Below are positions 1,522-54,959 of a stretch of DNA of 64,000 bases, one piece after another. The stretch lies in NCBI GenBank assembly GCA_963757355.1, contig CAVWRG010000003.1:2465550-2529549 (forward strand). The letters are read 5' to 3'. This DNA comes from an uncultured Acidobacteriota bacterium. Its GTDB lineage: Bacteria; Acidobacteriota; Vicinamibacteria; Vicinamibacterales; CAVVIG01. Made by a program: the position numbers and the translations under genes. The notes under the pieces are model-generated. The model did no database searches and was not told the DNA's origin. It was given only the letters and a program-made list of their open reading frames with translations. Within the stretch, counting starts at the first letter, position 1, and every line of letters begins with the position of its first letter.

Positions 1522-1585
1522 GAAAAAGGGGCCGTACCCCTTTTTCGCGTCGGGCCGCCTGAAAAAGGGGTACGGCCCCTTTTTG
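1522..1585. repeat. Paired palindromic mini-element (arm GAAAAAGGGGCCGTACCCCTTTTTC 1522-1546; reverse-complement arm GAAAAAGGGGTACGGCCCCTTTTTG 1561-1585)
   Basis: Each arm is a hairpin (A5G4-CCGTA-C4T5). The arms are mutual reverse complements 14 nt apart. The element begins 8 nt after the hslU stop, so it also resembles a bidirectional intrinsic terminator. Related copies are at 41111, 44291, 51322 and 53296. Confidence 0.9.
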
Positions 1586-3682: not shown

Positions 3683-3686
3683 CTCT

Positions 3687-3760
3687 CCACCATGGAGGAC
3701 ACGGCGGACACAGCGGAAAAGATACGTTCGGAATTTTTGCCTCCGTGTCCTCTGTGGTCG
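3687..3760. repeat. Inverted short-unit hairpin element, GGACACGG family
   Basis: Left arm CCACCATGGAGGACACGGCGGACACAGCGG and right arm CCTCCGTGTCCTCTGTGGTCG are largely complementary. The element fills the spacer between the FAH gene and the transaldolase gene. Confidence 0.75.
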
Positions 3761-3804
3761 CGAGTTTTGGGCAGAGGGGTTCGACCGAAGTAAGGGGATG
3801 TGAC

Positions 3805-6029: not shown

Positions 6030-6086
6030 AATTGGTGAATTGGTCAATTGGTGAGTTGGTGAGTTCGTGAATTGGCGAGTTGCTGA
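6030..6086. repeat. One-armed tandem octamer array, TTGGTGAG family (7 units)
   Basis: AATTGGTG AATTGGTC AATTGGTG AGTTGGTG AGTTCGTG AATTGGCG AGTTGCTG. It runs from the stop of the carboxyltransferase gene to the GTG start of the amidase gene. Confidence 0.85.
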
Positions 6087-7719: not shown

Positions 7720-7772
7720 TTACCACGGAGGACACGGTGGACGGAGGTCCTCTGTGTCCTCTGTGGTGGAGA
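7720..7772. repeat. Inverted short-unit hairpin element, GGACACGG family
   Basis: TACCACGGAGGACACGGTGGACGGAGG | TCCTCTGTGTCCTCTGTGGTGGA. It lies immediately upstream of, and overlapping, the probable accC start. Confidence 0.75.
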
Positions 7773-19328: not shown

Positions 19329-20762
<1,434 letters not shown>

Positions 20763-20767
20763 GAGCT

Positions 20768-20844
20768 GGGATTCGTGATTCGGGCTTCGGGATTCGCGGC
20801 GCCCCGAATCCCGATCGAATCCCCAATCCCGAATCCCGAATCCC
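20768..20844. repeat. Inverted heptamer hairpin, GGGATTC family
   Basis: GGGATTCGTGATTCGGGCTTCGGGATTCGCGG | CCCCGAATCCCGATCGAATCCCCAATCCCGAATCCCGAATCCC. It fills the spacer between the regulator and kinase genes. Confidence 0.85.
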
Positions 20845-20852
20845 TTCTCCAC

Positions 20853-23653: not shown

Positions 23654-23803
23654 CAATTGGTAAATTGGTGAGTTGATAAATTGCTAAAAGCTAAAAGATG
23701 GGGCGATTTTGCGTCCGTAGCCAAATTGCGATCGAATCAGTTTCGACAGCTCGTCAGCATTCCCGGCATTCACCAACTTACCAACTCACCAACTCACCAA
23801 CTC
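23654..23803. repeat. Inverted octamer arrays, TTGGTGAG family, with ~70-nt central loop
   Basis: Left arm CAATTGGTAAATTGGTGAGTTGATAAATTGCTAAAAGCTAAAAG (23654-23697). Right arm ATTCACCAACTTACCAACTCACCAACTCACCAACTC (23768-23803). Confidence 0.8.
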
Positions 23804-23852
23804 TCTTTGTTTTGCACAGATGTCAACATCTTGCGACTGCCCTAAAAGAAAG

Positions 23853-23868
23853 GCACAATATGTGGTGT
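23853..23868. promoter_or_regulatory. Possible NrdR box (GCACAATATGTGGTGT)
   Basis: About 13/16 match to my recollection of the NrdR-box consensus acaCwAtATaTwGtgt, 8 nt upstream of a -35 hexamer in front of nrdJ. No convincing second box at the usual spacing. Confidence 0.3.
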
Positions 23869-23876
23869 TTACACGC

Positions 23877-23905
23877 TTGACAAACCGGCTGGCTGGCCTC
23901 ATATT
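23877..23905 (+). promoter_or_regulatory. Sigma-70-type promoter candidate for nrdJ (TTGACA-17-CATATT)
   Basis: TTGACA at 23877-23882 and CATATT at 23900-23905 with a 17-nt spacer. It would give a ~155-nt leader to ATG 24065. Confidence 0.35.
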
Positions 23906-24064
23906 GGTCCGCCGAAACAGAACGGGGTGAGCGAGCCGGGATCTCCCAGCTTCGGGCTCGATCGCCAGGATTTTTCACGCGCTGATCGGTCACGGGCTTA
24001 TCCAATACAGCTTCGACGGTCGTTTCCGGGGGCCGGAACGCGATCGCCCATCGGTGGAGGGAAC

Positions 24065-26950
24065 ATGAAAGAAGGCGCTGCCTACCAAGCCGCGAGTGCC
24101 GGCCAGCAGACGGTAGAAAGCAGTGGAGCACCGGCTGTGTCGCATGCCGACGCGCTGCTGGAAAAAGACAAACCGCGCGCGACGAGCTCGGAGCGCTCGG
24201 AGCCTGCCGACGGGCGCGCGAAGAAAGCCGCCGCGGCTCCCGGTTTGGCGTTCCCTCGCTTCTTCACCGAGGCCGGCGTGGATCCGTTCGACGAAGTCGA
24301 ATGGGACCTGCGCGCCGCCGTGATTGGCAACGACCGTGGCGAACTGGTGTTCGAGCAGCGCGATGTCGAGATTCCGAGAACCTGGTCCCAGCAGGCGACC
24401 AACATCGTCGTCTCGAAATATTTTCGCGGACAGATCGGTACGCCCGAGCGGGAGCGCAGTGTCAAGCAGCTGATCGGCCGCGTGGTGACGACGATCACCG
24501 AGTGGGCCCGGTCGAACAAATATTTTGCCGCCGAGGAGGATCTGCAGGCGTTCAGCGACGACCTGAAGCACATCCTCGTCTACCAGAAGGCGGCGTTCAA
24601 CAGCCCCGTCTGGTTCAATTGCGGTTTCGAGAAGGCGCCGCAGTGTTCCGCGTGCTTCATCAATTCGGTGCAGGACACGATGGACTCGATCCTGACGCTG
24701 GCGCGCACGGAGGGGATGCTCTTCAAATTCGGCTCGGGCACGGGCACGAATCTGTCGCCGATTCGGTCGTCGAAGGAGCTGCTGGCCGGCGGCGGCACGG
24801 CGTCGGGTCCCGTGTCGTTCATGAAGGGCTACGACGCGTTCGCCGGTGTGATCAAGTCGGGCGGCAAGACGCGGCGCGCCGCGAAGATGGTCATCCTGAA
24901 CGCCGACCATCCCGATATCGTCGAGTTCGTCAACTGCAAGGTCGAGGAAGAGAAGAAGGCGTGGGCGCTGATCGACGCCGGCTACGACGGCTCGTTCACC
25001 GGGCCGGCGTACGCCTCGGTGTTCTTCCAGAATTCGAACAACAGCGTGCGCGTGCCCGACGACTTCATGCGGGCGGTGCTCGACGACAGCACGTGGGACA
25101 CCCATGCGGTGCGCGACGGCGCGGTGCTCGATACGTATCAGGCGCGCGACCTGATGCGGCTCATCGCCGAGGGGACGCACGTCTGCGGCGATCCCGGCAT
25201 GCAGTTCGATACGACGATCAACGAGTGGCACACGTGTCCGGAGACCGACCGCATCCACGCGAGCAATCCGTGCTCCGAGTACATGTTCCTGAACGACTCG
25301 GCATGCAATCTCGCGTCGATCAACCTGATGAAGTTCGTGAAAGAGGACGGCGAGTTCGACACGGTGGCCTATAAGGCCGCGATCCGCACGCTCATCACGG
25401 CGCAGGAGATCATCGTCGACAAGGCGAGCTATCCGAGTGACGCGATCGGGAAGAACAGCCACGCGTACCGGCCGCTCGGGCTCGGCTATGCGAACCTCGG
25501 CGCGCTGCTGATGTCGCGCGGTCTGCCGTACGACAGCGACGCCGGACGCGACTACGCGGCGGCGCTGACGGCGCTGATGACCGGCGAAGCCTACGCCCAG
25601 TCGGCGCGGATCGCGCGCGATCACGGCGGGCCGTTCTCCGGCTACGACAAGAACCGCGAGCCGTTCCTGCGCGTGATGCGCAAGCACCGCGACGCGATGC
25701 GCGACGTCAACGGCCGCAACGTACCGTCGGATCTCTATCACACGGCGAAGGCGTCGTGGGACGATGCGGTGGAGCTGGGCGAAGCGTTCGGCTACCGCAA
25801 CGCGCAGGCGACCGTGCTGGCGCCGACCGGCACGATCGGCTTCATGATGGACTGCGATACGACGGGCGTCGAGCCCGACATCGCGCTGGTGAAGTACAAG
25901 AAGCTGGTCGGCGGCGGCCTGATGAAGATCGTCAACCAGACGGTGCCGATGGCGCTGCAGAAGCTGGGCTACACGCAACCGCAGATCGAGGCGATCATCG
26001 ACTACATCGACAAGCACGAGACGATCGAAGGCGCGCCGGCCCTGAAGGAATCGCACCTGCCGGTGTTCGACTGCGCATTCAAGGCGGCCAAAGGACACCG
26101 GTCGATCCACTACATGGGGCACATCAAGATGATGGGCGCCACGCAGCCGTTCATCTCGGGCGCGATCAGCAAGACGGTCAACGTCCCGAAGGACGCGACG
26201 GTCGAGGACATCACGCAGGCCTACATCCAGTCGTGGAAGATGGGTGCGAAGGCGATCTCGATCTACCGCGACGGCAGCAAGCGCACGCAACCGCTGAACA
26301 CCTCGAAGGACAAGACCGCCGCGGAACTGGCGCAGGCGGCCGCCGCCGCGCTCATCACGCAGCCGACGCGGCACAAGCTGCCCGACGAGCGTCATGCGCT
26401 GACGCACAAGTTCGACATCCAGGGACACGAGGGCTACATCACCGTCGGCCTCTTCGAGAACGGCCAGCCGGGCGAGATCTTCCTGGTGATGGCGAAGGAA
26501 GGCTCGACGATCTCGGGCTTCGCCGACGCGTTCGCCCAGGCGATCTCCTACGCGCTGCAGTACGGCGTGCCGCTCCAGGCGCTGGTGGACAAGTTCAGCC
26601 ACGTCCGCTTCGAGCCGTCGGGCATGACGCGCAATCCGGAGATCCGGTTCGCGAAGTCGATCGTCGACTACATCTTCCGGTGGATGGCGTCGAAGTTCCT
26701 GTCGCCCGAGGCGCAGTTCCACGCGGGCGTCAACGGTCGCGAGCTGGACGACAACGGCCACGCACCGGCTGCCGCCGAACGGGCGCCGGCGGCGCCAGCG
26801 GTTGCACCGGCCGGAGCGGCGGCGGGGCAGTACTCGACGATTCAGAATCAAGAAGACGCGCCGCCGTGCTCCACGTGCGGCTCGATCATGATCCGCAGCG
26901 GTGCCTGCTACAAGTGCAGCAACTGCGGCAATACGTCGGGCTGCGCTTAG
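24065..26950 (+). CDS. nrdJ: Vitamin B12-dependent ribonucleotide reductase (class II)
   Basis: GGAGGG RBS plus ATG 24065. Motifs are ...VSKYFRG..., NSPVWFNCG, SNPCSEY, the TGTIGFMMDCDTTGVEPD region, ISKTVN, and a C-terminal Cys cluster CSTCGS...CYKCSNCGNTSGC. Confidence 0.95.
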   Translation: MKEGAAYQAASAGQQTVESSGAPAVSHADALLEKDKPRATSSERSEPADGRAKKAAAAPGLAFPRFFTEAGVDPFDEVEWDLRAAVIGNDRGELVFEQRDVEIPRTWSQQATNIVVSKYFRGQIGTPERERSVKQLIGRVVTTITEWARSNKYFAAEEDLQAFSDDLKHILVYQKAAFNSPVWFNCGFEKAPQCSACFINSVQDTMDSILTLARTEGMLFKFGSGTGTNLSPIRSSKELLAGGGTASGPVSFMKGYDAFAGVIKSGGKTRRAAKMVILNADHPDIVEFVNCKVEEEKKAWALIDAGYDGSFTGPAYASVFFQNSNNSVRVPDDFMRAVLDDSTWDTHAVRDGAVLDTYQARDLMRLIAEGTHVCGDPGMQFDTTINEWHTCPETDRIHASNPCSEYMFLNDSACNLASINLMKFVKEDGEFDTVAYKAAIRTLITAQEIIVDKASYPSDAIGKNSHAYRPLGLGYANLGALLMSRGLPYDSDAGRDYAAALTALMTGEAYAQSARIARDHGGPFSGYDKNREPFLRVMRKHRDAMRDVNGRNVPSDLYHTAKASWDDAVELGEAFGYRNAQATVLAPTGTIGFMMDCDTTGVEPDIALVKYKKLVGGGLMKIVNQTVPMALQKLGYTQPQIEAIIDYIDKHETIEGAPALKESHLPVFDCAFKAAKGHRSIHYMGHIKMMGATQPFISGAISKTVNVPKDATVEDITQAYIQSWKMGAKAISIYRDGSKRTQPLNTSKDKTAAELAQAAAAALITQPTRHKLPDERHALTHKFDIQGHEGYITVGLFENGQPGEIFLVMAKEGSTISGFADAFAQAISYALQYGVPLQALVDKFSHVRFEPSGMTRNPEIRFAKSIVDYIFRWMASKFLSPEAQFHAGVNGRELDDNGHAPAAAERAPAAPAVAPAGAAAGQYSTIQNQEDAPPCSTCGSIMIRSGACYKCSNCGNTSGCA

Positions 26951-27100
26951 GGAACTCGGGACGGGATTTGGGATTTGGGATTAGGGATTCGATTGGGATT
27001 CGGGGTTCGCGATTCGGCGGAACCCCAAATTCCAAACCCAGATCGCAATTCCCAAATCGCGAATCACAACGCGAGTCCCAAATCCCGAATCCCGAATCCC
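26951..27100. repeat. Large inverted heptamer/octamer hairpin, GGGATTC/GGGATTT family (~150 bp)
   Basis: Left arm GGGATTTGGGATTTGGGATTAGGGATTCGATTGGGATTCGGGGTTCGCGATTCGG. Right arm CCCCAAATTCCAAACCC...GTCCCAAATCCCGAATCCCGAATCCC. It starts 1 nt after the nrdJ stop. Confidence 0.85.
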
Positions 27101-28163: not shown

Positions 28164-28222
28164 GCCGCCCGCCAGTCAGCGATCCGGCGCCCCCTTCTGT
28201 CCAAGGCTCGCCCACGAAACGG

Positions 28223-28269
28223 AGGGGGGCGTCGATCCCTGATCCCCGATCCCTGATCCACGCCCCCCT
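28223..28269 (+). terminator. Stem-loop after the DinB-family gene (AGGGGGGCG ... CGCCCCCCT)
   Basis: A perfect 9-bp GC stem encloses a 29-nt loop made of GATCCCT/GATCCCC heptamers and is followed by TT. Confidence 0.4.
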
Positions 28270-28272
28270 TCA

Positions 28273-28302
28273 TTGACATCTACGAAGGCCATCGTAGATA
28301 AT
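28273..28302 (+). promoter_or_regulatory. Promoter with embedded BlaI-type operator (TTGACA ... ATCTACGA-N6-TCGTAGAT ... GATAAT)
   Basis: -35 TTGACA at 28273-28278 and -10 TAGATA/GATAAT at 28295-28302. A perfect 8-bp dyad ATCTACGA/TCGTAGAT (28278-28299) fills the spacer. The blaI ATG is at 28311. Confidence 0.5.
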
Positions 28303-37841: not shown

Positions 37842-38008
37842 TTGGGAAGTTGGTGAGTTAGTGAGTTGGTGAGTTGGTGAGTTGGCGAGTTGGTAAGTTG
37901 GTAAGTTGGTAAGTTGCTAAGTTGGTGAGTTGACGGCTTGGCGAGTTGGCGATTTGGTGCATTGAATTCGCCAAATCACCAATTCACCAATTTACCAATT
38001 CACCAACT
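37842..38008. repeat. Largest inverted octamer array, TTGGTGAG family (~15 units forward, ~5 units reverse complement)
   Basis: GGAAGTTGGTGAGTTAGTGAGTTGGTGAGTTGGTGAGTTGGCGAGTTGGTAAGTTGGTAAGTTGGTAAGTTGCTAAGTTGGTGAGTTGACGGCTTGGCGAGTTGGCGATTTGGTG - CATTGAATT - CGCCAAATCACCAATTCACCAATTTACCAATTCACCAACTT. It occupies the entire spacer between convergent stops. Confidence 0.9.
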
Positions 38009-39037
38009 TCAGTATGGCAGCTCGTTATTTTCGGCCGCGGCGCGTTCGGTGCTGCGTGTCAGGCGTGACGGCGCCCAGGCGGAGCCGCTCTGCCAGCCGG
38101 TGCGCGGGCGGTCGCCCGATGCGTCCGTCGCCGACGGCAAGAGGCGGTTGGCCCACTCCATCACCAGCGCGACACCCTCAGGCATGAGGGCATTGGCGAC
38201 GACCGCGAGCTTCGCCGGCCAGCTGATCACGAGCTCGGCATCGCCGTGGCGGCAGGCGTCGACCACCTGCCCAGCCGCACGCGCGGCGTCGATCGAGGCG
38301 ATGGGCATCGAATCGGAAATCGCAAACCAGGTGAACTCGTCGCGATAACGCCCCTTGAACCACGCGTTGAACGGCGAGCCGGTGCGCATCATGCCCGGGC
38401 AGACGGTCGTCACGTGAATGCCGTCCTTTGCGAGCTCGCTGCGGACTGAGTCGGACAATCCGGTGAGCGCAAACTTGCTCGCGCAGTACGGCGTCAGGTG
38501 CGGCACGCCGATTTTGCCTCCGATCGAAGAGATGTTGACGATCCGTCCGCCGCCGCGCCGGCGCATCTCCGGGATCGCCGTCAGCATCGTGTGCAGCGGC
38601 CCCCAGAAGTGCACCGCCATCGCTTCTTCGAAGTCGCCTCGCTGCATGTGATCGAGCGGGCCGACCTTGATCACGCCCGCGTTGTTGATCAGCACGTCGA
38701 TGCGTCCTGTGCGCGCCACGACGCCGCGGACCAGCTGTGTGGCCTCCTCGCGATCGCCGACGTTGCAGACGACGATCGCCGCCTCGATGCCGCGGCCGGC
38801 GAGATCATCGCGCGCCCGTTGCAGCTCGGCTTCATCACGGGCGGCGAGCGTGACGCGCGCCCCTTCGCGGCCGAACTCGCGAGCGAGCAGCAGCCCGAGC
38901 CCGCGCGAGCCGCCGGTGATCACAACTGAGCAGCCGTCGAACGTCATCGATCGCACGGCGCGAATCTGGCGTGCAATCAGCGCCGCGCCGATCGTCGCGA
39001 CGCCAGCTGCCAGCGCCGTTTGCTGTGTCTTGTTCAT
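38009..39037 (-). CDS. SDR family oxidoreductase with N-terminal membrane anchor
   Basis: ATG at 39037 gives MNKTQQTALAAGVATIGAALIA... followed by VVITGGSRGLGLLLA, NNAG and YCASKFAL. The track ORF extends spuriously to 39829. Confidence 0.85.
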   Translation of the reverse strand: MNKTQQTALAAGVATIGAALIARQIRAVRSMTFDGCSVVITGGSRGLGLLLAREFGREGARVTLAARDEAELQRARDDLAGRGIEAAIVVCNVGDREEATQLVRGVVARTGRIDVLINNAGVIKVGPLDHMQRGDFEEAMAVHFWGPLHTMLTAIPEMRRRGGGRIVNISSIGGKIGVPHLTPYCASKFALTGLSDSVRSELAKDGIHVTTVCPGMMRTGSPFNAWFKGRYRDEFTWFAISDSMPIASIDAARAAGQVVDACRHGDAELVISWPAKLAVVANALMPEGVALVMEWANRLLPSATDASGDRPRTGWQSGSAWAPSRLTRSTERAAAENNELPY

Positions 39038-39160: not shown

Positions 39161-41797
39161 ATGCCGGACGCTTCGGCACCCACACTGACTGGTCTGGCAG
39201 CCCGCTCCACGCGCGACGGCGCTCTCGACGCCGCCCTCGAGCGGCTGGCGGGTGATCGGCTGCACAGAGACGGGTCTCCGCCCGACGTTCGGAGACCCGT
39301 CCCCCCGGAGACCCGTTCCTCTCTCGACCGACCCGACACGCCCGACCTGCACGTCACCGCAGTCCGCCGCCTCCCGGCCGTTCCCGCGCAGTTCGCACCG
39401 TTTCCAGAGGCGCTCGATCCGCGGCTGCGGCGTGCGCTCGCATCGCGCGGCATCGCGCAGGCCTACACGCATCAGGCCGAAGCGATCGAGCACGCGCTTG
39501 CCGGCCGCCATACCGTCGTCGTCACGCCGACGGCATCCGGCAAGACGCTCTGCTACAACGCGCCGGTCTTGCACGCGATCCTGCAAGATCCAGCGGCGCG
39601 CGCGCTCTATCTGTTTCCGACGAAAGCGCTCGCGCAGGATCAGCTCGCCGAGCTGCAGGCGATGTGCGAAACGCTGTCGGGGCTGCCGTCGGGGACAGGT
39701 CTCGGCGAGGATGAACGAGACCTGTCCCCGATCAGCGTCTTCACCTACGACGGCGACACGCCGCAGGACGCGCGGCGCACGATTCGGGGACGCGCGCATC
39801 TCGTCCTCAGCAATCCGGACATGGTGCACTCAGGCATCCTGCCGCACCACCCGCGATGGGCAAAGCTCTTCGAGAATCTCCGTTACGTGATCATCGACGA
39901 GCTGCACGCCTACCGAGGCGTCTTCGGCAGTCACCTGTGCAACGTGCTGCGGCGGCTGCGCCGCATCTGCCGGCATTACGGATCGAATCCGGTGTTCCTC
40001 TGTTCGTCGGCGACCATCGCGAACCCGCAGGAGCTGGCGGAACGGCTCACCGAGCAGCCATTCGAGTTGGTCGATCAAAGCGGCGCACCGCGCGGCGAGA
40101 AGTTCTTCGTGTTCGTCAACCCGCCGGTGGTGAATCAGCCGCTGGGCATCCGCCGGTCGTATCTGAGTGAGACGCGCCGCATTGCCGCCGAATTCCTGAA
40201 GCGGAATCTGCAGCTGATCGTCTTCGCGCAGAGCCGTCTCGCCACCGAGATTCTGACGACGTACCTGAAGGACGACTTCGAAGGGATGCCTGGCGCACCC
40301 GAGCGGATCCGTGGGTATCGCGGCGGATATCTGCCGAATCGGCGCCGCGAGATCGAAAAGGGCTTGCGGGAAGGTGCGGTGCGCGCGGTGGTCTCGACCA
40401 ACGCGCTCGAGCTCGGCATCGACATCGGTGCGCTCGACGTCAGCGTCATGGCCGGCTACCCGGGGACGATCGCGGGGACGTGGCAGCGCGCCGGGCGCGC
40501 CGGACGCCGCGCCAGCCGATCGGCGGCAGTGATGGTCGCCAGCAGCGCACCGCTCGATCAGTTCGTCGTCCGCAACCCGTCGTACTTCTTCGACGCGTCG
40601 CCCGAGCGCGCGCTGATCGATCCTGACAACCTCCATATCCTGGTCGATCACATCAAGTGCGCCGCCTTCGAGCTGCCGTTCACGACGAGCGAGGCGTTCG
40701 GCCGGCACGACCTCCAGGAGATTCTGTCGCTGCTGGCGGAGCAGGGGCTGGTGCATCGCGCCGGCGGCAGCGCCGACCTCGACGCGCCGGAGGTCGAAAC
40801 GCAGTGGACGTGGACGAACGAATCGTACCCGGCCGACGCGGTCAGCCTGCGGTCGGTGTCCTCAGACAATTTCGTGATTGTCGATACGACAGAGGAGACG
40901 TGCGTCATCGGAGAGACCGATTTCACGAGCGGCCCCGCCACGCTCCATCCCAAAGCGATCTACATCGTCGAAGGGAAGCTGTATCAGGTGGAGAGGCTCG
41001 ATTTCGAAGGACGCAAGGCGTTCGTGCGCGCGATCGAGTGTGACTACTACACGACCGCGATCACGTACACGCGGGTGACGATCCTCGATACGTTTGCGCA
41101 AGGCGCGGAGGAACAGGGGTACGGCCCCTTTTCGGGTGAGTCCGGCGACGAAAAGGGGCCGTACCCCTTTTCCTCGCACGGCGAGGTCCACGTCGTGTCG
41201 CGCGTCGTCGGGTTCAAGAAGATCAAGTTCTATACGAACGAAAATGTCGGATCCGGCGAGCTCGACCTGCCCGAGCAGCAGATGCACACGACCGCGTACT
41301 GGCTGACCATTCCAGCGTCGGTGATGAGGCTGCTGCCGTGCGCCTCGGACGATCGGCGCGACGGCGTCGTTGGCTTGGCGTTCGCGATGCGCCAGGTCGC
41401 GCAGCTGCTGTTGATGTGCGATGGGCACGACATCGGCATCTCAATTTCCGGATTCGGGATTGGGGATGCGGGATTGGGGCCGAAAGCGGGCCAGTCGAAT
41501 CCCGCATCCCCAATCCCCAATCCCGACGGCGTTCAGATCTTTGTGTACGACAATTACCCGGGTGGGATTGGTTTCAGCGAGCCGTTGTTCCGGATGCACG
41601 ATGAGTTGCTCGCCGCGACGCGCCGTCTCATCGCCGAGTGCGAGTGCGAGAGCGGTTGCCCGGGATGCGTCGGCCCCGTCGGCAATACCGGACCGCTCGC
41701 GAAAGTGGTGGCGCTGCGGATTCTCGATCTGTTGACGGGCGCGACGGCGCTCTCCACGCCGGCGCACACGGTCGATCCAGAGGTTCAACCTTTTTGA
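39161..41797 (+). CDS. DEAD/DEAH-box helicase with C-terminal DUF1998 zinc domain (MrfA/YprA-like)
   Basis: Motif I VVVTPTASGKTLCY, motif II IIDELHAY, SAT-like SSATIAN, and QRAGRAGRR. The C-terminus carries CECESGCPGCV. Two repeat insertions lie in frame. Confidence 0.9.
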   Translation: MPDASAPTLTGLAARSTRDGALDAALERLAGDRLHRDGSPPDVRRPVPPETRSSLDRPDTPDLHVTAVRRLPAVPAQFAPFPEALDPRLRRALASRGIAQAYTHQAEAIEHALAGRHTVVVTPTASGKTLCYNAPVLHAILQDPAARALYLFPTKALAQDQLAELQAMCETLSGLPSGTGLGEDERDLSPISVFTYDGDTPQDARRTIRGRAHLVLSNPDMVHSGILPHHPRWAKLFENLRYVIIDELHAYRGVFGSHLCNVLRRLRRICRHYGSNPVFLCSSATIANPQELAERLTEQPFELVDQSGAPRGEKFFVFVNPPVVNQPLGIRRSYLSETRRIAAEFLKRNLQLIVFAQSRLATEILTTYLKDDFEGMPGAPERIRGYRGGYLPNRRREIEKGLREGAVRAVVSTNALELGIDIGALDVSVMAGYPGTIAGTWQRAGRAGRRASRSAAVMVASSAPLDQFVVRNPSYFFDASPERALIDPDNLHILVDHIKCAAFELPFTTSEAFGRHDLQEILSLLAEQGLVHRAGGSADLDAPEVETQWTWTNESYPADAVSLRSVSSDNFVIVDTTEETCVIGETDFTSGPATLHPKAIYIVEGKLYQVERLDFEGRKAFVRAIECDYYTTAITYTRVTILDTFAQGAEEQGYGPFSGESGDEKGPYPFSSHGEVHVVSRVVGFKKIKFYTNENVGSGELDLPEQQMHTTAYWLTIPASVMRLLPCASDDRRDGVVGLAFAMRQVAQLLLMCDGHDIGISISGFGIGDAGLGPKAGQSNPASPIPNPDGVQIFVYDNYPGGIGFSEPLFRMHDELLAATRRLIAECECESGCPGCVGPVGNTGPLAKVVALRILDLLTGATALSTPAHTVDPEVQPF
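41111..41173. repeat. Paired palindromic mini-element inside the helicase CDS (arms GGGGTACGGCCCC then GGGGCCGTACCCC)
   Basis: GAACAGGGGTACGGCCCCTTTTC - 16 nt - GAAAAGGGGCCGTACCCCTTTTCC, 63 nt in all. It is translated as EQGYGPFSGESGDEKGPYPFS. Confidence 0.85.
41448..41525. repeat. Inverted heptamer hairpin (GGGATTS family) inside the helicase CDS
   Basis: A perfect 20-bp inverted repeat, GGGATTGGGGATGCGGGATT (41456-41475) and AATCCCGCATCCCCAATCCC (41498-41517). The 78-nt block stays in frame. Confidence 0.9.
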
Positions 41798-43083
41798 GCG
41801 CGCTCTCCGACCGCCTGCGTGGCATCATCGGCGCGCCGCCGCCTGGCGCCGCGGGGACCGGATCCCAAGTCCCGTGGAGCGGATCCCAAATCCCGGCCGA
41901 ATCCCAAATCCCGATCGAATCCCGAATCCCAAATCCCGAATCCCGAGATCTCTCCTGCCTGGCCGGCGAATGGCGCGGTGGCTGTTTCGTCGTGGAGCGG
42001 CGATACGACCGTGGCGTCTGCTATGGCCACGAGCCCGTCGGGGCGCTCTGGAGCCGCCTGGCAGCAGCCGCAGACGAGGCGCCGCTTGTCGCCGGCGGTG
42101 CGCCGGCGCGGCTGCCGTTCGTGTTCTTCGATTTGGAAACCACCGGTCTGAGCGGCGGCGCCGGCACTCACGCGTTTCTGGTGGGCTGCGCCTCGTTCGA
42201 CGAAGAAGGCGCGTTCGTCACGCGGCAATTCCTGCTCACGCGCTTCACCGACGAGAAGCCGCTGCTCGCCGCGGTGGCCGCCGAGCTCGCCCGGGCGGGC
42301 GCGTTGGTCAGCTTCAACGGCAAGTCGTTCGACGCGCCGGTGCTGGAGACGCGCTACTTGTATCACCGGCTGCCATGGGCCGCAGGGCAGCTGCCGCACA
42401 TGGACGTTCTGCACCCGGCACGGCGCTTCTGGCGCGACGAGCAGGAGATGGCGAGCTGTTCGCTGGTGTCGCTCGAGCGTCAGATCCTCGGGGCGCGCCG
42501 CATCGGCGACGTCCCGGGATTCGAGATTCCTGCGCGTTACTTTCAGTTCATTCGGAGTGGCGAGGCGCGCCCGCTGGCGGCCGTGCTCGAGCACAACCGG
42601 CTCGATTTGTTGTCGCTCGCCGGGCTGACCGCGCGCCTGCTGCATCTCATCCGCCGGGGTCCTGGCGCCGCGAAGGACGCGCGCGAGGCGTTGGCGCTCG
42701 GACGGGTGTACCTGCGTGCCGGGCTCGAGGTGCGCGCGTGCGACGCGTTCCAACAGGCGGCCGACCGATCGAGCGCGCACAGCGCGGTCAGAATCGAGTC
42801 GCTGCGCGCGCTGGCGCTGGCCTGGCGCCGCGCGCGGCAGCACGACCGCGCGGCAGCCTGCTGGAGCGCGCTGCTCGACGCGCCCGCGTGTCCGCGCCAC
42901 GTCGCACGTGAGGCGACCGACGCGCTCGCGATTCATCACGAGCATCGCGTCCGCGATCTCGCCGCGGCGAAAGGCTTTGCATTACGAAGTCTGGAATCCG
43001 GCGTGCATCCCGCCAGTCACGCGGCGGTGAGGCATCGTCTGGCACGGATCGAGCGGAAGATGAGCTCGCGTTTGCTGCTGTAG
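41794..43083 (+). CDS. DEDDh-type 3'-5' exonuclease with TPR-like C-terminus (MrfB/YprB-like)
   Basis: The TTG start overlaps the helicase stop (TTGA) and gives (M)SALSDRLRGII. Exo motifs are FFDLETTGL, FNGKSFDAPVLETRY and LEHNRLDLLSLAGL, with a helical repeat tail. The start is uncertain. Confidence 0.75.
   Translation: MSALSDRLRGIIGAPPPGAAGTGSQVPWSGSQIPAESQIPIESRIPNPESRDLSCLAGEWRGGCFVVERRYDRGVCYGHEPVGALWSRLAAAADEAPLVAGGAPARLPFVFFDLETTGLSGGAGTHAFLVGCASFDEEGAFVTRQFLLTRFTDEKPLLAAVAAELARAGALVSFNGKSFDAPVLETRYLYHRLPWAAGQLPHMDVLHPARRFWRDEQEMASCSLVSLERQILGARRIGDVPGFEIPARYFQFIRSGEARPLAAVLEHNRLDLLSLAGLTARLLHLIRRGPGAAKDAREALALGRVYLRAGLEVRACDAFQQAADRSSAHSAVRIESLRALALAWRRARQHDRAAACWSALLDAPACPRHVAREATDALAIHHEHRVRDLAAAKGFALRSLESGVHPASHAAVRHRLARIERKMSSRLLL
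41860..41946. repeat. One-armed heptamer array (GAATCCC/AAATCCC units) inside the exonuclease CDS
   Basis: GGATCCCAAGTCCC...GGATCCCAAATCCCGGCCGAATCCCAAATCCCGATCGAATCCCGAATCCCAAATCCCGAATCCCGAG, translated as GSQVPWSGSQIPAESQIPIESRIPNPESR. Confidence 0.85.
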
Positions 43084-43198
43084 CCGGGTCCAGAAGGACC
43101 CGGCCTACAATCGGAGGCCGTAGTCGCGTCCAAAGGACCCGCCCTGCAATCGGAGGCCGTAGCCGGATCCCACAGGACCCGGTTTTCAACCGGGCGGC
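43080..43198. repeat. Three tandem ~40-bp REP-like units (GTAG-hairpin-CCTAC)
   Basis: GTAGCCGGGTCCAGAAGGACCCGGCCTACAATCGGAGGCC / GTAGTCGCGTCCAAAGGACCCGCCCTGCAATCGGAGGCC / GTAGCCGGATCCCACAGGACCCGGTTTTCAACCGGGCGGC. The first GTAG contains the exonuclease TAG stop. Confidence 0.85.
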
Positions 43199-43519: not shown

Positions 43520-43554
43520 GTAGGAGCCGGCCTATGTGCCGGCCCGTACTCTAC
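43520..43554. repeat. REP-like hairpin (GTAGGAGCCGGCC-TATGT-GCCGGCCCGTACTCTAC)
   Basis: GTAG...CTAC termini with a GCCGGC stem. The terminal CTAC supplies the TAG stop of the minus-strand aldo/keto reductase gene. Confidence 0.6.
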
Positions 43555-44555
43555 GGCGTCGCGTTCGGCGCGCGGTCCCACCGATGGCTCCGCAGCGCTT
43601 CCTTCAACCGGGGTGGGAGAGGCGCCGCATCGCTGACGGCCATGTTGCGTTCGACGTGCCCGGTCCGGCGCATACCGGGAATCGTGGTGCTGACGGCCGG
43701 GTTCGCCAGGATGAATCGCAGCGCGATCTCGGCCAGATTCATCCCCTCCGGCACGAGCGGCTCGAGCCGCTCGACACGCGCGAGCGTGGCCGCCAGGTGG
43801 CCGGGGTTGAAATAGACGTTGCGCCAATCGCCTTCCGGCCAGCGTGATTCCGCGGTCAACGTGCCTGTGAGGCTGCCTTCATCGAAGGGCACCCGCGCGA
43901 TGACGGCGATGCCGTGCTGCTGACAATAGGGGAGCAGCGTATCCTCCGCCGACTGATCGAAGATGTTGTAGACCACCTGCACGCTGTCGATCAGGCCGGT
44001 GTCGAGCGCCCGCAGGACGTTTTCCGGCTCCCACCGGTTGACGCTGATCCCGAAACCGCGGATCAGCTTTTCGCGTTTCAGTGTCTCGACCGCCCGCTGC
44101 CAGCCGCGATCCGCGGCCCAGGCGTCGCTCCAGACGTGAAACTGTTGCAGGTCGATCGCCTCCACGCCGAGGTTCGCGAGGCTCTTCTCCGTGTACTCGC
44201 GGATGTGATCGGCGGGATAGGTGTCGCGGACGTCGTATTCCGCCCGCCCCGGCCATTTCATGTTCTTCGGCGGGATCTTGGTGGCGACGACAACGGGCCG
44301 TATCCCTTTTTCGCCGGCATCGCTCGGAAAAGGGGTACGGCCCCTTTTTCGGAGCGCCTGCCCGAGCAGCGTCTCGCTCTTGCCTGCGCCGTAGGCCCAC
44401 GCCGTGTCGAAGAAGGTGCAGCCGAGGGTCAGCGCGCGATCCAGCGCCTGCAGCGACTCCTCATCGTTGGAGCCGGTCCAGCCGCCCATGCCCCACAGGC
44501 CATAGCCGACTTCAGAAACCTGCCAGCCCGCTCGGCCGAATGTCCGGTAGCGCAT
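43551..44555 (-). CDS. Aldo/keto reductase
   Basis: MRYRTFGRAGWQVSEVGYGLWGMGGW...FFDTAWAYGAGKSE...VVATKIPP...IGISV...AIARVPFDEGSLTG. It contains an in-frame repeat insertion. Confidence 0.9.
   Translation of the reverse strand: MRYRTFGRAGWQVSEVGYGLWGMGGWTGSNDEESLQALDRALTLGCTFFDTAWAYGAGKSETLLGQALRKRGRTPFPSDAGEKGIRPVVVATKIPPKNMKWPGRAEYDVRDTYPADHIREYTEKSLANLGVEAIDLQQFHVWSDAWAADRGWQRAVETLKREKLIRGFGISVNRWEPENVLRALDTGLIDSVQVVYNIFDQSAEDTLLPYCQQHGIAVIARVPFDEGSLTGTLTAESRWPEGDWRNVYFNPGHLAATLARVERLEPLVPEGMNLAEIALRFILANPAVSTTIPGMRRTGHVERNMAVSDAAPLPPRLKEALRSHRWDRAPNATP
44291..44350. repeat. Paired palindromic mini-element inside the aldo/keto reductase CDS (one arm degenerate)
   Basis: CAACGGGCCGTATCCCTTTTTC - 14 nt - GAAAAGGGGTACGGCCCCTTTTTC, 60 nt in all. 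It reads on the minus strand as RKRGRTPFPSDAGEKGIRPV. Confidence 0.85.
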
Positions 44556-46554: not shown

Positions 46555-46641
46555 GGGATTTGTGATTCGTGATTGGGATTCGGCGGGATTCGTCTCGAAT
46601 CCGACCGGCTGCGAATCCCAAATCCCGAATCCCGAATCCCC
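46555..46641. repeat. Inverted heptamer hairpin, GGGATTC family
   Basis: GGGATTTGTGATTCGTGATTGGGATTCGGCGGGATTCGT | CGAATCCGACCGGCTGCGAATCCCAAATCCCGAATCCCGAATCCC. It fills the spacer between the engB start and the lon stop. Confidence 0.85.
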
Positions 46642-46647
46642 CGAACG

Positions 46648-49047
<2,400 letters not shown>

Positions 49048-49121
49048 ATTTGGTGAGTTGGCAATTTGGTAAATGGGTAAATTGAACTTACCAATTTACC
49101 AACTTATCCATTTACCAATTT
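49048..49121. repeat. Inverted octamer hairpin, TTGGTGAG/TTGGTAAA family
   Basis: ATTTGGTGAGTTGGCAATTTGGTAAATGGGTAAATTG | ACTTACCAATTTACCAACTTATCCATTTACCAATTTC. It spans the whole lon-clpX spacer. Confidence 0.85.
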
Positions 49122-51321: not shown

Positions 51322-51345
51322 GAAAAGGGGCCGTACCCCTTTTCC
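51322..51345. terminator. Single arm of the palindromic mini-element (GAAAAGGGGCCGTACCCCTTTTCC) downstream of tig
   Basis: A4G4-CCGTA-C4T4 hairpin 27 nt after the tig stop on the minus strand. It has a U-run on either strand, giving a bidirectional intrinsic-terminator shape. Confidence 0.45.
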
Positions 51346-52673: not shown

Positions 52674-52698
52674 GCGATTTTCATGGAGTGAAAACGAG

Positions 52699-52816
52699 AT
52701 TTGGTGATCTGGTGATTTGGTGACTTGGCGATTGATGACCTGGCGAATGGGATGTCAGTGCAGTCACTAACACCCTCAATTCACCAACTCTCCAACTCAC
52801 CAACTCGCCAATTTTA
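52699..52816. repeat. Inverted octamer hairpin, TTGGTGAY family
   Basis: ATTTGGTGATCTGGTGATTTGGTGACTTGGCGATTGATGACCTGGCGAATGG - 25-nt loop - TCAATTCACCAACTCTCCAACTCACCAACTCGCCAATTTT. It lies between tRNA-Leu and the tig start. Confidence 0.85.
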
Positions 52817-52871: not shown

Positions 52872-52954
52872 TGCGAAAGGCGGGAGTCGAACCCGCATGG
52901 CTGTTAACCACCGGATCCTAAGTCCGGCGCGTCTGCCAGTTCCGCCACTTTCGC
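52872..52954 (-). tRNA. tRNA-Leu (anticodon UAG)
   Basis: The minus strand reads GCGAAAG-TG-GCGGAACTGGCAGACGCG-CCGGA-CTTAGGA-TCCGG-TGGTTAACAGCCAT-GCGGG-TTCGACT-CCCGC-CTTTCGC-A. All four stems pair and the long variable arm marks class II. CCA is not encoded. Confidence 0.9.
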
Positions 52955-53297: not shown

Positions 53298-53357
53298 AAA
53301 AGGGGCCGTACCCCTTTTTCAGGTGCGCCCAAGAAAAAGGGGTACAGCCCCTTTTAC
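53296..53357. repeat. Paired palindromic mini-element between convergent genes
   Basis: AGAAAAGGGGCCGTACCCCTTTTTC - 12 nt - GAAAAAGGGGTACAGCCCCTTTTAC. It overlaps the stop codons of the small ORF (+) and the methylase (-). Confidence 0.85.
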
Positions 53358-54337
53358 GAGCTCAGCGTTCTCGGCGTCAGATTCGAGATCAGGAATTCGT
53401 CGACCGGGCCGCGGCCGGCCGCGTCGCTGTTCATCGCGCGACGCGCGGGGACGCGCACCGCGCGAAGACCGGCGGCGCGCGCGTCGACGCTCGTGTCGTA
53501 GAGCGCCGCGATTTCGCGCGCGGTGGAATTGCTGACCAGCACGTAGCATCCGCGCCCCGCCAACTCGATCACCATCCGCTGCACGCGCGTCTGATCCTCG
53601 AGCGTGAAGCGCGGCGCCGTGTACGACGTGAAGTTCGCCGTCGCGCTCAGCGGTGCGTACGGTGGATCGACGTACAGAAAATCGCCCGCCTCCGCGATGC
53701 CGAGCGCCGCCTCGAACGATCCGCAGATCAATTGCACCCGCGCGCTCGCCAGCGCCGCCGCGACGCGAAACAATTTCGCGCGATCGCAGATCGATGGCCG
53801 CGCATAGCGTCCGGCCGGCACGTTGTACGCGCCGCTCGCATTGACCCGAAAGAGCCCGTTGAACCCGGTGCGATTGAGATAGATGAGCATCGCGGCGAGC
53901 TGCGGGGTGTACGCAATGCGGCCGTCCGCGCGCCGGCGCTGCTCGCGCTGCGGGTTGAATTGCGCATCCCGCACGGCGTAGTAGTGCGCGGAGCCGTCCG
54001 CGGCATGCGCCGCTGCGAGCTCGCCCAGCGCCCGCGACACTTGCTCCGGCTGGTCGCGCACGGTCTCGTAGCAGCCGATCAGATCCGGATTCGAGTCGAT
54101 GAGAATCGCGTCGTGATCCCGCAGCCGGCCCGCGCCCCACAAGTCGAAGAACACGGCGCCGCTGCCGAAGAACGGCTCGACGTACCGGCCGAACGCCTCG
54201 GGATAGAAGCGGCGCAGCTGCGGCAGGAGCTGTCGCTTGCCGCCCGCCCACTTGAGCAACGGACCTGCTTGATTGCCGGGCGACGATTGGTGACTTGGTG
54301 CCCCGGTGACTTGGCGAATGACGCCGCTCTTCATCAT
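53354..54337 (-). CDS. dam: DNA adenine methyltransferase (Dam-like, D12 class N6-MTase)
   Basis: LLKWAGGKRQLLPQL...EPFFGSGAVFF (FxGxG SAM motif)...FLYVDPPY (DPPY catalytic motif). The ~25-aa N-terminal extension is encoded by repeat units, so the start is uncertain. Confidence 0.9.
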   Translation of the reverse strand: MMKSGVIRQVTGAPSHQSSPGNQAGPLLKWAGGKRQLLPQLRRFYPEAFGRYVEPFFGSGAVFFDLWGAGRLRDHDAILIDSNPDLIGCYETVRDQPEQVSRALGELAAAHAADGSAHYYAVRDAQFNPQREQRRRADGRIAYTPQLAAMLIYLNRTGFNGLFRVNASGAYNVPAGRYARPSICDRAKLFRVAAALASARVQLICGSFEAALGIAEAGDFLYVDPPYAPLSATANFTSYTAPRFTLEDQTRVQRMVIELAGRGCYVLVSNSTAREIAALYDTSVDARAAGLRAVRVPARRAMNSDAAGRGPVDEFLISNLTPRTLSS

Positions 54338-54382
54338 GTCGTCGAATTTACCAACTCACCAACTCACCAACTCACCAATTTC
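54284..54382. repeat. Inverted octamer hairpin, TTGGTGAC/TTGGTGAG family, straddling the methylase start codon
   Basis: Left arm CGATTGGTGACTTGGTGCCCCGGTGACTTGGCGAATG (in the CDS). The loop carries the CATCAT start codons (54332-54337). Right arm GAATTTACCAACTCACCAACTCACCAACTCACCAATTTC. Confidence 0.85.
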
Positions 54383-54864: not shown

Positions 54865-54959
54865 CTCGCCAATTGGCGAGTTGGCGAGTTGGAGAGTTGG
54901 CGAGTTGGCGAGTTGAAATCACCAATTCACCAATTCACCAATTCACCAATTCACCGAAT
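54865..54959. repeat. Inverted octamer hairpin, TTGGCGAG / CACCAATT family
   Basis: GCTCGCCAATTGGCGAGTTGGCGAGTTGGAGAGTTGGCGAGTTGGCGAGTTG | AAATCACCAATTCACCAATTCACCAATTCACCAATTCACCGAAT. It includes the perfect 16-bp palindrome CTCGCCAATTGGCGAG. Confidence 0.9.

What the first reader, a model, noticed from the sequence alone, without database searches (positions are those of the whole stretch)
41448..41525. Perfect 20-bp hairpin of the heptamer family inserted in frame in the helicase DUF1998 region
GGGATTGGGGATGCGGGATT (41456-41475) and its exact reverse complement (41498-41517) are 22 nt apart. They sit inside a 78-nt (26-codon) block of GGGATTS units. The block keeps the reading frame and is translated as GISISGFGIGDAGLGPKAGQSNPASPIPNPDGVQ. 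It lies between CDGHDIG and IFVYDNYPGGIGF, which I recall as contiguous conserved segments in this helicase family. An intergenic-type structured repeat has therefore been absorbed into a protein. The perfect stem suggests a recent or constrained insertion.
Basis: partly seen in the sequence, partly recalled or inferred. Interest (0 to 1): 0.6.

Follow-up and report, generated by a model that had tools for sequence, protein, structure and literature searches.

The report
Hairpin repeat fossilised inside a helicase loop
A hairpin-forming DNA repeat that normally sits between genes has become a translated ~26-residue stretch in a variable loop of a DNA-repair helicase of a soil acidobacterium. 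It is an old, inherited insertion, one of four such hairpins in this gene, and a new example of a known phenomenon.

Summary
41456-41475 and 41498-41517 are exact reverse complements 22 nt apart, extending to 29-nt arms at 93%. They lie in frame in an intact 878-aa MrfA/YprA-type helicase of a Vicinamibacterales genome. The arms are tandem GGGATTS heptamers, the same repeat that forms intergenic hairpins at 20762-20850, 26963-27100 and 46555-46640.

- An intergenic-type repeat has indeed been absorbed into the protein.
- The flanking motifs are not contiguous in the family. B. subtilis MrfA has 15 residues there, and Acidobacteriota have 7-74 hypervariable ones.
- The insertion is not recent. 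Thirteen orthologues carry the same hairpin with a homologous loop and the same length, although flanking third codon positions are nearly saturated.
- Pairing shows no covariation, and relatives keep only 20-27 of 29 pairs.

Two facts explain why it is tolerated. Heptamer arrays have no stop codon in any of the six frames, whereas the genome's octamer hairpins have stops in every frame and are all intergenic.

The helicase holds three more in-frame hairpins. The same loops were colonised independently by at least three hairpin families in other lineages. The closest precedent is the Rickettsia palindromic elements. How the repeats spread is unknown.

The parts
41447..41475 (+). Left arm of the hairpin. 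It consists of four GGGATTS heptamers translated as S-GFGIGDAGL. The perfect core is 41456-41475. The stretch 41456-41479 is also a G-quadruplex motif.
41476..41497 (+). Hairpin loop of 22 nt, translated GPKAGQS. It is homologous to the loop in 13 orthologues but evolves at about the neutral rate (0.61 identity).
41498..41526 (+). Right arm, made of four SAATCCC heptamers translated NPASPIPNP-D. The perfect core is 41498-41517.
41438..41536 (+). The 33-codon variable loop ('site 4') of the MZB domain, between CDGHDIG and IFVYDNYPGG. It is the host site of the element.
39161..41797 (+). Host gene: an MrfA/YprA-type SF2 helicase of 878 aa, intact, with the four Zn-binding cysteines present.
41108..41175 (+). 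Second in-frame hairpin ('site 3'), with 27-nt arms at 96%. It belongs to the AAGGGGCCGTACCCCTT family and is translated EEQGYGPFSGESGDEKGPYPFS.
39689..39731 (+). Third in-frame hairpin ('site 2'), with 16-nt perfect arms. It belongs to the GGGGACAGGTCTC family and is translated SGTGLGEDERDLSP.
39269..39301 (+). Fourth in-frame hairpin ('site 1'), with 12-nt perfect arms. It is of the same family as site 2 and lies in the N-terminal extension.
41855..41946 (+). One-armed (GAATCCC)n array in frame in the N-terminal linker of the downstream MrfB-like exonuclease gene (TTG 41794 to 43083). Its copy number differs between orthologues.
20762..20850 (.). Intergenic member of the heptamer-hairpin family. 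It lies between a stop codon at 20760-20762 and the probable ATG at 20853.
26963..27100 (.). Intergenic member of the heptamer-hairpin family. It is long and degenerate, and lies downstream of the stop of ORF 23846-26950.
46555..46640 (.). Intergenic member of the heptamer-hairpin family, between lon and rho on the minus strand. It is conserved in the closest relative (L161 13275-13361).

Best explanation
The element is a copy of a genome-resident family of hairpin repeats. Each copy has a run of GGGATTS heptamers, a spacer that differs between copies, and the inverted run SAATCCC.

Shown:
- The family normally lies in short intergenic spacers.
- In an ancestor of a large group of Vicinamibacterales, one copy came to lie inside a hypervariable beta-hairpin loop of the helicase's C-terminal Zn-binding (MZB) domain.
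- It has been inherited vertically since then. The stem decays slowly and is sometimes partly deleted.
- It is tolerated for three reasons. A 7-nt unit repeated three times is 21 nt, so every reading frame of either strand gives the same stop-free peptide (GFGIRDS or NPESRIP). That peptide is hydrophilic and rich in Gly, Ser, Pro and Asn. The host loop accepts 7-74 residues of almost any sequence.
- The helicase holds three further in-frame hairpins of two other families.
- The same loops were colonised independently by different hairpin families in other lineages.

Inferred:
- It now acts mainly as about 26 residues of extra, probably flexible, surface loop.
- That loop lies between the N666-equivalent DNA contact and the YPGGIG hinge.
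- Nothing shows a function for the base-pairing itself.

Unknown: how the repeat got there, whether by transposition-like spread or by local generation.
For: Family membership and intergenic habit.

Intact, constrained host gene:
- Pfam domains are all present.
- The match to the MrfA structure 6ZNP has E = 2.8e-220.
- Against the closest relative, codon positions 1+2 are 97% identical and position 3 is 91%.

The site is a variable loop:
- 14-15 residues in Firmicutes and MrfA.
- 7-74 residues in 120 close homologues, and 11-68 in other Acidobacteriota.

Old, single insertion for this lineage:
- The 14 sequences share the junction ATCTCGAT|...|CGAC.
- They share a homologous loop (consensus CGGnCCGGACGCACGnCAGTCG) and a length of 96-102 nt.
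- They come from three branches of the helicase tree.
- Flanking third positions average 0.63 identity.

No selection on pairing:
- 84.7% of cells are paired against 84.3% in shuffles, with only 3 double-change cells.
- G-U mismatches number 23 and A-C mismatches 22.

Frame compatibility:
- Heptamer arrays ending in C, G or T have no stops in any of six frames.
- Octamer arrays have stops in all three frames of one strand, so an octamer hairpin has stops in every frame. All 7 octamer hairpins are intergenic.

Recurrent colonisation:
- Four in-frame hairpins lie in this gene.
- Other families occupy site 4 in L155, L106 and L123.
- Heptamer hairpins occupy site 3 in L123 and L104.
- L088 and P0059 have different junctions.

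Decay products: P0086, L086 and L157 keep only part of the element.

Position relative to N666 and to Y690/I694: alignment together with PMC7797055.
Against: - No transposition hallmark was found. There are no target-site duplications, no terminal inverted repeats beyond the stem, and no spacer shared between genomic copies. 'Insertion of a mobile copy' is therefore inferred from family resemblance, not shown.
- The arms are more conserved (0.81) than the hairpin loop (0.61) or flanking third positions (0.63). A purely passive fossil does not predict this. Some constraint acts on the arms, at the peptide level, by homogenisation, or at the DNA level.
- Surface exposure is not demonstrated. The AlphaFold model was poor, with mean pLDDT 51.6.
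- The neighbour-joining tree is low-resolution. The number of gains and losses at site 4 is therefore uncertain.
Confidence: 0.78

Rival explanations
1. Local origin rather than insertion. A heptamer microsatellite expanded by slippage inside the loop. It was then converted into a hairpin by an inverted duplication, through template switching at a replication fork. No mobile element was involved.
For: - Genomic copies share only the heptamer, not the spacer or the unit number.
- One-armed arrays exist and change copy number between orthologues, as in the MrfB linker and P0117.
- No target duplications were seen.
- The same GGGATTC arrays occur in unrelated phyla, including Xanthomonas, Vibrio and Advenella. 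This argues for recurrent generation or a general mechanism.
Against: - The same unit appears at unrelated intergenic and coding loci of one genome.
- It appears independently in two different loops of the helicase in different lineages.
- Other, non-tandem hairpin families with a defined consensus, such as AAGGGGCCGTACCCCTT, behave in the same way. That is easier to explain by copy dispersal.
Confidence: 0.2
2. The hairpin, or the G-quadruplex its arms can form, is a selected nucleic-acid element inside the coding sequence. It might pause translation, set mRNA stability, or act as a DNA structure connected with the helicase's own activity.
For: - The fold is very stable, with z = -5.9.
- The arms are more conserved than the loop and than synonymous sites.
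- There is one compensatory G-C/T-A exchange between the window and its closest relative.
- Both strands carry canonical G4 motifs.
Against: - There is no covariation above shuffles.
- The paired fraction of about 85% is what independent decay of two arms that are each about 90% conserved predicts.
- There is no G-U over A-C bias.
- Orthologues retain only 20-23 of 29 pairs.
- About three quarters of close homologues lack the element entirely or carry unrelated sequence.
- No Rfam family matches at its gathering score.
Confidence: 0.08
3. The encoded peptide was retained for a protein-level function, as an adaptive loop extension near the DNA entry funnel of the MZB domain.
For: - The codon-position pattern within the arms is position 2 (0.88) > position 1 (0.81) > position 3 (0.74), as expected under purifying selection on the peptide.
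- The junction and length have been stable across divergent orthologues.
- The site lies between the N666-equivalent DNA contact and the Y690/I694 hinge.
Against: - The middle of the insert evolves neutrally.
- Many lineages have deleted half of it or replaced it with unrelated acidic or glycine-rich linkers as short as 7 residues.
- N666A and MZB-DNA contacts are dispensable in B. subtilis MrfA (PMC7797055).
Confidence: 0.12
4. Artefact or pseudogene. Either the hairpin is an assembly error, or the gene is no longer functional or translated.
For: The closest relative (L161) is frameshifted by a 1-nt change in the G-run next to the stem, which removes the Zn-binding domain. It is also frameshifted inside another in-frame hairpin, in its aldo-keto reductase gene.
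Against: - In the window the frame is intact through all domains and all four cysteines.
- Thirteen independent assemblies from different projects carry the same element, twelve of them in frame.
- The substitution pattern is that of a constrained gene.
- The L161 shifts sit in a homopolymer and at strong hairpins. Consensus errors are a plausible cause there.
Confidence: 0.03

Closest known systems
Rickettsia palindromic elements (RPE; Ogata et al. 2000, as summarised in PMC3184786)
   Same: - It is a dispersed palindromic repeat family found both between genes and inside ORFs.
- Coding copies preserve the reading frame and add a peptide segment to otherwise conserved, apparently functional proteins.
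- The copies are old and decaying.
   Different: - The phylum is unrelated (Acidobacteriota, 66% GC) and there is no sequence similarity.
- The element is shorter (about 80 nt against 105-146 nt).
- It is built from tandem heptamers with no conserved internal sequence.
- It is stop-free in all six frames.
- Here several different families repeatedly occupy the same loops of one protein.
REP / REPIN elements mobilised by RAYT transposases (GTAG- or CGTC-tagged palindromes; PMC3733652)
   Same: - They are short GC-rich hairpins in many copies.
- They sit in intergenic spacers just after stop codons.
- Only the stem is conserved.
   Different: - The heptamer hairpins have no GTAG or CGTC tag.
- The arms are internally repetitive.
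- They occur in frame inside genes.
- No RAYT gene was sought or found.
- The window does contain a separate cluster of true GTAG...CTAC palindromes at 43081-43190.
Other small bacterial repeats fused in frame to ORFs (BRE of Bordetella, pneumococcal BOX/RUP/SPRITE, enterobacterial and Anabaena MITEs; PMC3184786)
   Same: Small non-autonomous repeats that contain open reading frames. They are found fused internally or terminally to chromosomal genes.
   Different: Those elements have terminal inverted repeats, target duplications or a conserved core. None of these was seen here.
Coding microsatellites / VNTRs
   Same: The heptamer arrays change copy number in 21-nt (7-residue) steps. This is seen in the MrfB-like linker and in P0117.
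   Different: The element in question is an inverted pair of arrays forming a hairpin. At this site its length has been stable (96-102 nt) across orthologues.
MrfA/YprA (DUF1998/MZB) helicase with MrfB exonuclease, B. subtilis (PDB 6ZNP; PMC7797055)
   Same: - The host gene has the full domain set.
- Its match to MrfA has E = 2.8e-220.
- It is followed by an overlapping RNase_H_2 exonuclease gene, as in mrfAB.
   Different: The Vicinamibacterales protein carries lineage-specific insertions at four loops and an N-terminal extension.

Membership tests
In-frame palindromic repeat insertions of the RPE type (functional class) | A multi-copy palindromic repeat family in the same genome | tested here: met
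   The window holds 31 matches to a two-heptamer pattern against 1.5 expected. It holds four hairpin copies and one one-armed array.
In-frame palindromic repeat insertions of the RPE type (functional class) | The copy lies inside an ORF, preserves the frame, and the host protein keeps its conserved domains | tested here: met
   The 878-aa ORF is intact, all Pfam domains and the 4-Cys motif are present, and the match to MrfA has E = 2.8e-220.
In-frame palindromic repeat insertions of the RPE type (functional class) | The insert is absent from homologues (filled against empty sites) | tested here: met
   About 92 of 120 close homologues and all 80 genome representatives lack it. The shortest loops are 7-12 residues.
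In-frame palindromic repeat insertions of the RPE type (functional class) | The insert maps to a surface-exposed, non-catalytic part of the protein | tested here: inconclusive
   The insert falls in the stretch aligned to MrfA residues about 672-683, which varies in length across homologues. The model places it between two strands. However, the AlphaFold2 model is poor, with mean pLDDT 51.6.
Rickettsia RPE families proper | Sequence homology to RPE-1 to RPE-8 | not tested
   No RPE sequences were compared. No Rfam family reaches its gathering score. The organism and element architecture differ, so membership is not claimed.
REP/REPIN-RAYT | A conserved GTAG or CGTC tetranucleotide at one end of the palindrome | tested here: not met
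   The element ends read TCCGGATTC...GAATCCCGA, with no tag. Tagged palindromes do exist elsewhere, at 43081-43190.
REP/REPIN-RAYT | A cognate RAYT (IS200/IS605-like Y1 transposase) in the genome | not tested
   Only 64 kb of a genome of at least 3 Mb is available, and its ORFs were not screened for Y1_Tnp.
MITE | Terminal inverted repeats flanking a conserved core, with target-site duplications | tested here: not met
   The spacers of the four copies are unrelated. No direct repeats flank the element.
MrfA/YprA helicase family (host gene) | An SF2 core, a winged helix and a C-terminal MZB domain with four Zn-binding cysteines | tested here: met
   DEAD scores 1.4e-30, Helicase_C 2.3e-13, WHD_HRQ1 1.3e-09 and MZB 8.3e-18. 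The motif CECESGCPGC is present.
MrfA/YprA helicase family (host gene) | An adjacent MrfB-type exonuclease gene | tested here: met
   The ORF from TTG 41794 overlaps the helicase stop by 4 nt. It matches RNase_H_2 at 2e-35. The arrangement is the same in orthologues.
Structured cis-regulatory RNA | Base pairs maintained by compensatory substitutions | tested here: not met
   84.7% of cells are paired against 84.3% in shuffles, and 139 of 500 shuffles reach the observed value. Two pairs show double changes.

The most novel reading that the evidence does not exclude
Vicinamibacterales may carry a set of hairpin repeat families that are inserted preferentially into particular loops of particular genes. 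The MrfA helicase would be a favoured target: four in-frame hairpins in one gene, and the same two loops hit independently by at least three families. Under this reading the pattern is not just random insertion filtered by selection. The conserved, G4-capable arms would then have a nucleic-acid-level role, such as structure-dependent targeting or feedback on a structure-resolving repair helicase. This would make the repeats a regular source of new protein loop sequence in this phylum.
Probability: 0.1. Interest if true: 0.75.

Novelty: new variant of a known kind. Interest (0 to 1): 0.5.

Why it matters
- It extends the Rickettsia-type phenomenon, selfish or structural palindromes becoming part of proteins, to an abundant and little-studied soil phylum.
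- The repeat has a different architecture. Its 7-nt periodicity makes it open in all six reading frames. That gives a simple rule for which repeat families can enter proteins (heptamers) and which cannot (the octamers of the same genome).
- It shows a route by which hypervariable protein loops are generated and then decay into ordinary-looking linkers.
- It has practical consequences. Gene callers will run ORFs through such repeats. Long-read assemblies appear to mis-call or truly vary in length at these hairpins: the closest relative is frameshifted at two of them. Homology models will show spurious disordered inserts.

Tried and rejected
- **AlphaFold2 on a 48-sequence alignment.** Mean pLDDT was 51.6 because all homologues available to the tool are at least 75% identical. 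The model was not used beyond secondary structure, and no fold search was run on it.
- **Genome-representative scan.** It returned 80 loci, none with the heptamer hairpin. It was useful only to show that the site is variable.
- **Metagenome scan.** Orthologue DNA had to be fetched protein by protein. One look-up returned no DNA. The window's own protein was not on record.
- **Covariation test.** It was negative, so 'constrained stem' was rejected.
- **Search for a sense-strand RNA signature, G-U against A-C mismatches.** None was found.
- **Proteome-wide search with a synthetic repeat peptide.** It failed once and was too short once. When it worked it returned only short spurious ORFs over intergenic arrays in other phyla. 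It gave no further host protein families, so the proteome-wide frequency of in-frame copies remains unmeasured.
- **Literature searches for the heptamer sequence and for palindromes in Vicinamibacteria.** They found nothing relevant.
- **Rfam.** It gave only sub-threshold resemblance to generic miRNA hairpins.
- **Target-site search.** A TCGATCGA palindrome in the empty-site sequence ATCTCGATCGAC was considered as a target. It was rejected because other families insert at different points of the same loop.
Full report
**1. The observation**

The sequence is exactly as described. 41456-41475 (GGGATTGGGGATGCGGGATT) and 41498-41517 are perfect reverse complements separated by 22 nt. With two mismatches the arms extend to 41447-41475 and 41498-41526, 29 nt at 93%.

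This is not chance.
- Twenty dinucleotide-preserving shuffles of the window never gave a perfect inverted repeat longer than 15 nt with a 3-40 nt loop. The window holds three of 20 nt or more.
- The 99-nt segment folds at -58.6 kcal/mol as RNA and -34 kcal/mol as DNA. The z-score is -5.9 and 0 of 200 shuffles fold as well.
- A two-heptamer pattern occurs 31 times against 1.5 expected.

The block lies in ORF 39161-41797 (+) and the quoted translation is correct. The protein has DEAD, Helicase_C, WHD_HRQ1 and MZB (formerly DUF1998) domains. It matches B. subtilis MrfA (PDB 6ZNP) at E = 2.8e-220. Names attached to homologues place the window in the Vicinamibacterales, phylum Acidobacteriota.

**2. 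What surrounds it**

The same heptamers form hairpins at 20762-20850, 26963-27100 and 46555-46640.
- By a GC3-based ORF map these lie in short spacers just after stop codons.
- The last one, between lon and rho, is also present in the closest relative.
- The copies share only the heptamer. Unit number and spacer sequence differ between copies.

A one-armed (GAATCCC)n array at 41855-41946 is in frame in the N-terminal linker of the next gene.
- That gene starts at TTG 41794 and overlaps the helicase stop.
- It is an RNase_H_2 exonuclease, the MrfB counterpart.
- The copy number of the array differs in nearly every orthologue.

**3. The site in the protein family**

They are not.
- MrfA has 15 residues between them, and other Firmicutes have 14.
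- Among 120 homologues of 75-92% identity the stretch is 7-74 residues and hypervariable.
- In other Acidobacteriota it is 11-68 residues of unrelated sequence.
- By alignment to MrfA, the site lies between the DNA-contacting N666 and the Y690/I694 hinge of the MZB domain (PMC7797055).
- About 28 of the 120 homologues carry the heptamer-hairpin peptide ISISGFGIRDSGF...NPESQIPNPDGVQ.

**4. Age of the insertion**

I obtained DNA for 13 orthologues that carry the element.
- All share the junction ATCTCGAT|...|CGAC and a segment length of 96, 99 or 102 nt.
- All share a recognisably homologous hairpin loop, so they descend from one insertion.
- They come from three branches of a neighbour-joining tree of the helicase.
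- Their flanking third codon positions are only 54-91% identical to the window, with a mean of 0.63 over all pairs.

The insertion is therefore old.

Independent insertions also exist. L088 and P0059 have heptamer hairpins with different junctions. L123 and L104 carry a heptamer hairpin in a different loop, site 3.

**5. Is the stem constrained?**

The pairing itself shows no sign of selection.
- On the 14-sequence alignment, 84.7% of cells pair, against 84.3% after shuffling partners. 139 of 500 shuffles reach the observed value, and only three cells show double changes.
- Watson-Crick pairs number 27 of 29 in the window and in L161, but only 20-26 elsewhere.
- G-U mismatches (23) are no commoner than A-C mismatches (22), so there is no sense-RNA signature.
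- The window differs from its closest relative by one compensatory exchange, 41468 G / 41505 C against T / A. This is a single event.

The arms are nevertheless conserved.
- Arm identity is 0.81, against 0.61 for the hairpin loop and 0.63 for flanking third positions.
- Within the arms, codon position 2 (0.88) > position 1 (0.81) > position 3 (0.74).
- Something constrains the arm sequence. It could be the peptide, homogenisation towards the heptamer consensus, or a DNA-level property other than pairing.
- The observed pairing level is what two independently conserved arms would give.

**6. Why it is tolerated**

Because 7 and 3 are coprime, an array of GGGATTC, GGGATTG or GGGATTT reads as the same stop-free 7-residue repeat in every frame. 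The repeat is GFGIRDS on one strand and NPESRIP on the other. The only requirement for an in-frame insertion is a total length divisible by three.

The window offers an internal control. Its second tandem-repeat hairpin family uses the octamer TTGGTGAG/CTCACCAA. An octamer array has TGA in all three frames of one strand, so a hairpin of octamers has stops in every frame. All seven copies are intergenic.

**7. The wider pattern**

The helicase ORF contains three more perfect or near-perfect in-frame hairpins.
- 39269-39301 and 39689-39731 both belong to the GGGGACrGGTCTC family.
- 41108-41175 belongs to the AAGGGGCCGTACCCCTT family. That family has intergenic copies at 1523-1584 and 53298-53355.

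All four sites are presence/absence-polymorphic loops among 48 aligned orthologues. Sites 2-4 are insertions relative to MrfA, and site 1 lies in an N-terminal extension that does not align to MrfA.

Further observations:
- The aldo-keto reductase gene holds another in-frame copy at 44292-44346. Two orthologues lack its left arm and loop.
- In other lineages site 4 holds hairpins of a third family, with core GGGGTCGGGAGTC and up to 27 perfect pairs.
- Remnants with only one arm are common.

These loops are therefore recurrent acceptors of several hairpin families. Whether this reflects permissiveness alone or targeting is not resolved. Four of the six coding insertions in the window fall in a gene that makes up about 5% of the coding DNA. 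That calculation is post hoc.

**8. Pseudogene or artefact?**

In the window the frame and all motifs are intact.

The closest relative (L161, 92% protein identity) has GGG instead of GGGG next to the stem. That shifts the frame and removes the Zn-binding domain. It is also frameshifted inside the reductase hairpin. These may be real hairpin-associated indels or consensus errors of a long-read assembly. I could not tell which.

**9. Comparison with what is known**

In-frame fusion of small palindromic repeats with ORFs is established for Rickettsia RPEs, Bordetella BRE and several MITE-like elements (PMC3184786).

The present element works like an RPE but is not a member of any described family.
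- It lacks the GTAG/CGTC tag of REPs (PMC3733652). True GTAG...CTAC palindromes do occur at 43081-43190.
- It lacks MITE hallmarks.
- It matches no Rfam family.
- I found no literature on such elements in Vicinamibacteria or on this heptamer.
- GGGATTC arrays translated as GFGIRDS do turn up as spurious small ORFs in Xanthomonas, Pseudoxanthomonas, Luteimonas, Vibrio and Advenella. The unit is therefore not confined to this phylum.

**10. Verdict**

The element is an old, vertically inherited, slowly decaying in-frame copy of a heptamer-hairpin repeat in a hypervariable loop. The gene that hosts it holds four such inserts.

It is a new variant of a known kind. Interest is moderate. The mode of spread and the reason for the recurrent use of the same loops remain open.

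Noticed in passing
window 39269-39301, 39689-39731, 41108-41175: There are three further in-frame hairpins in the same helicase ORF, with perfect arms of 12, 16 and 20 nt (the last extends to 27 nt at 96%). They belong to two other repeat families. All sit in loops that are presence/absence-polymorphic among orthologues.
   Followed up: partly
window 41855-41946 (gene 41794-43083): A one-armed (GAATCCC)n array is translated as SQIPAESQIPIESRIPNPESR in the N-terminal linker of the MrfB-like RNase_H_2 exonuclease. The array length differs in almost every orthologue and is very long in L165.
   Followed up: partly
window 44292-44346 (gene 43551-44555, minus strand): An in-frame hairpin of the AAGGGGCCGTACCCCTT family lies inside an aldo-keto reductase and is translated KRGRTPFPSDAGEKGIRP. 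Orthologues L163 and L168 lack the left arm and loop.
   Followed up: partly
window 6032-6088, 23655-23803, 37848-38011, 49047-49121, 52698-52811, 54287-54378, 54873-54955: A second tandem-repeat hairpin family is built from the octamer TTGGTGAG / CTCACCAA. All seven copies are intergenic, consistent with stop codons in every frame.
   Followed up: partly
window 1523-1584, 53298-53355, 51325-51341: These are intergenic copies of the AAGGGGCCGTACCCCTT hairpin family. Two are complete hairpins, one with 24 perfect pairs, and one is a single arm.
   Followed up: no
window 43081-43190: Three tandem GTAG...CTAC-tagged palindromes (39-nt period) start at the stop codon of the MrfB-like gene. They look like classical REP elements and are distinct from the heptamer hairpins.
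   Followed up: no
L161 8232-8420 and 11065-11282: The closest related genome is frameshifted inside both in-frame hairpins examined. In the helicase the G-run is 3 instead of 4. In the aldo-keto reductase the frame changes from -2 to -3. These are either hairpin-associated indels or long-read consensus errors.
   Followed up: partly
proteins P0121-P0180: GGGATTC heptamer arrays, some with the inverted arm, are called as short hypothetical proteins (GFGIRDSGFGIRDS...) in Xanthomonas, Pseudoxanthomonas, Luteimonas, Vibrio and Advenella. The repeat unit therefore occurs across phyla.
   Followed up: no
window 41456-41479 (+) and complement of 41501-41524: Both arms are canonical G-quadruplex motifs, with four G3-4 tracts and 3-4 nt loops, one on each strand.
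   Followed up: no
window 3681-3766, 7722-7767, 28218-28274: Further imperfect hairpins were seen, with a CACGGAGGACAC-type core and a GATCCCT-repeat type. They probably lie in intergenic spacers.
   Followed up: no
L155 4221-4310 region, L106, L123 (site 4 of the helicase): Other Vicinamibacterales lineages carry hairpins of a GGGGTCGGGAGTC-core family in the same helicase loop, with up to 27 perfect pairs. L123 additionally has a heptamer hairpin at site 3.
   Followed up: partly
window 52872-52954 (minus strand): A tRNA gene, the only Rfam match in the window at gathering threshold.
   Followed up: no
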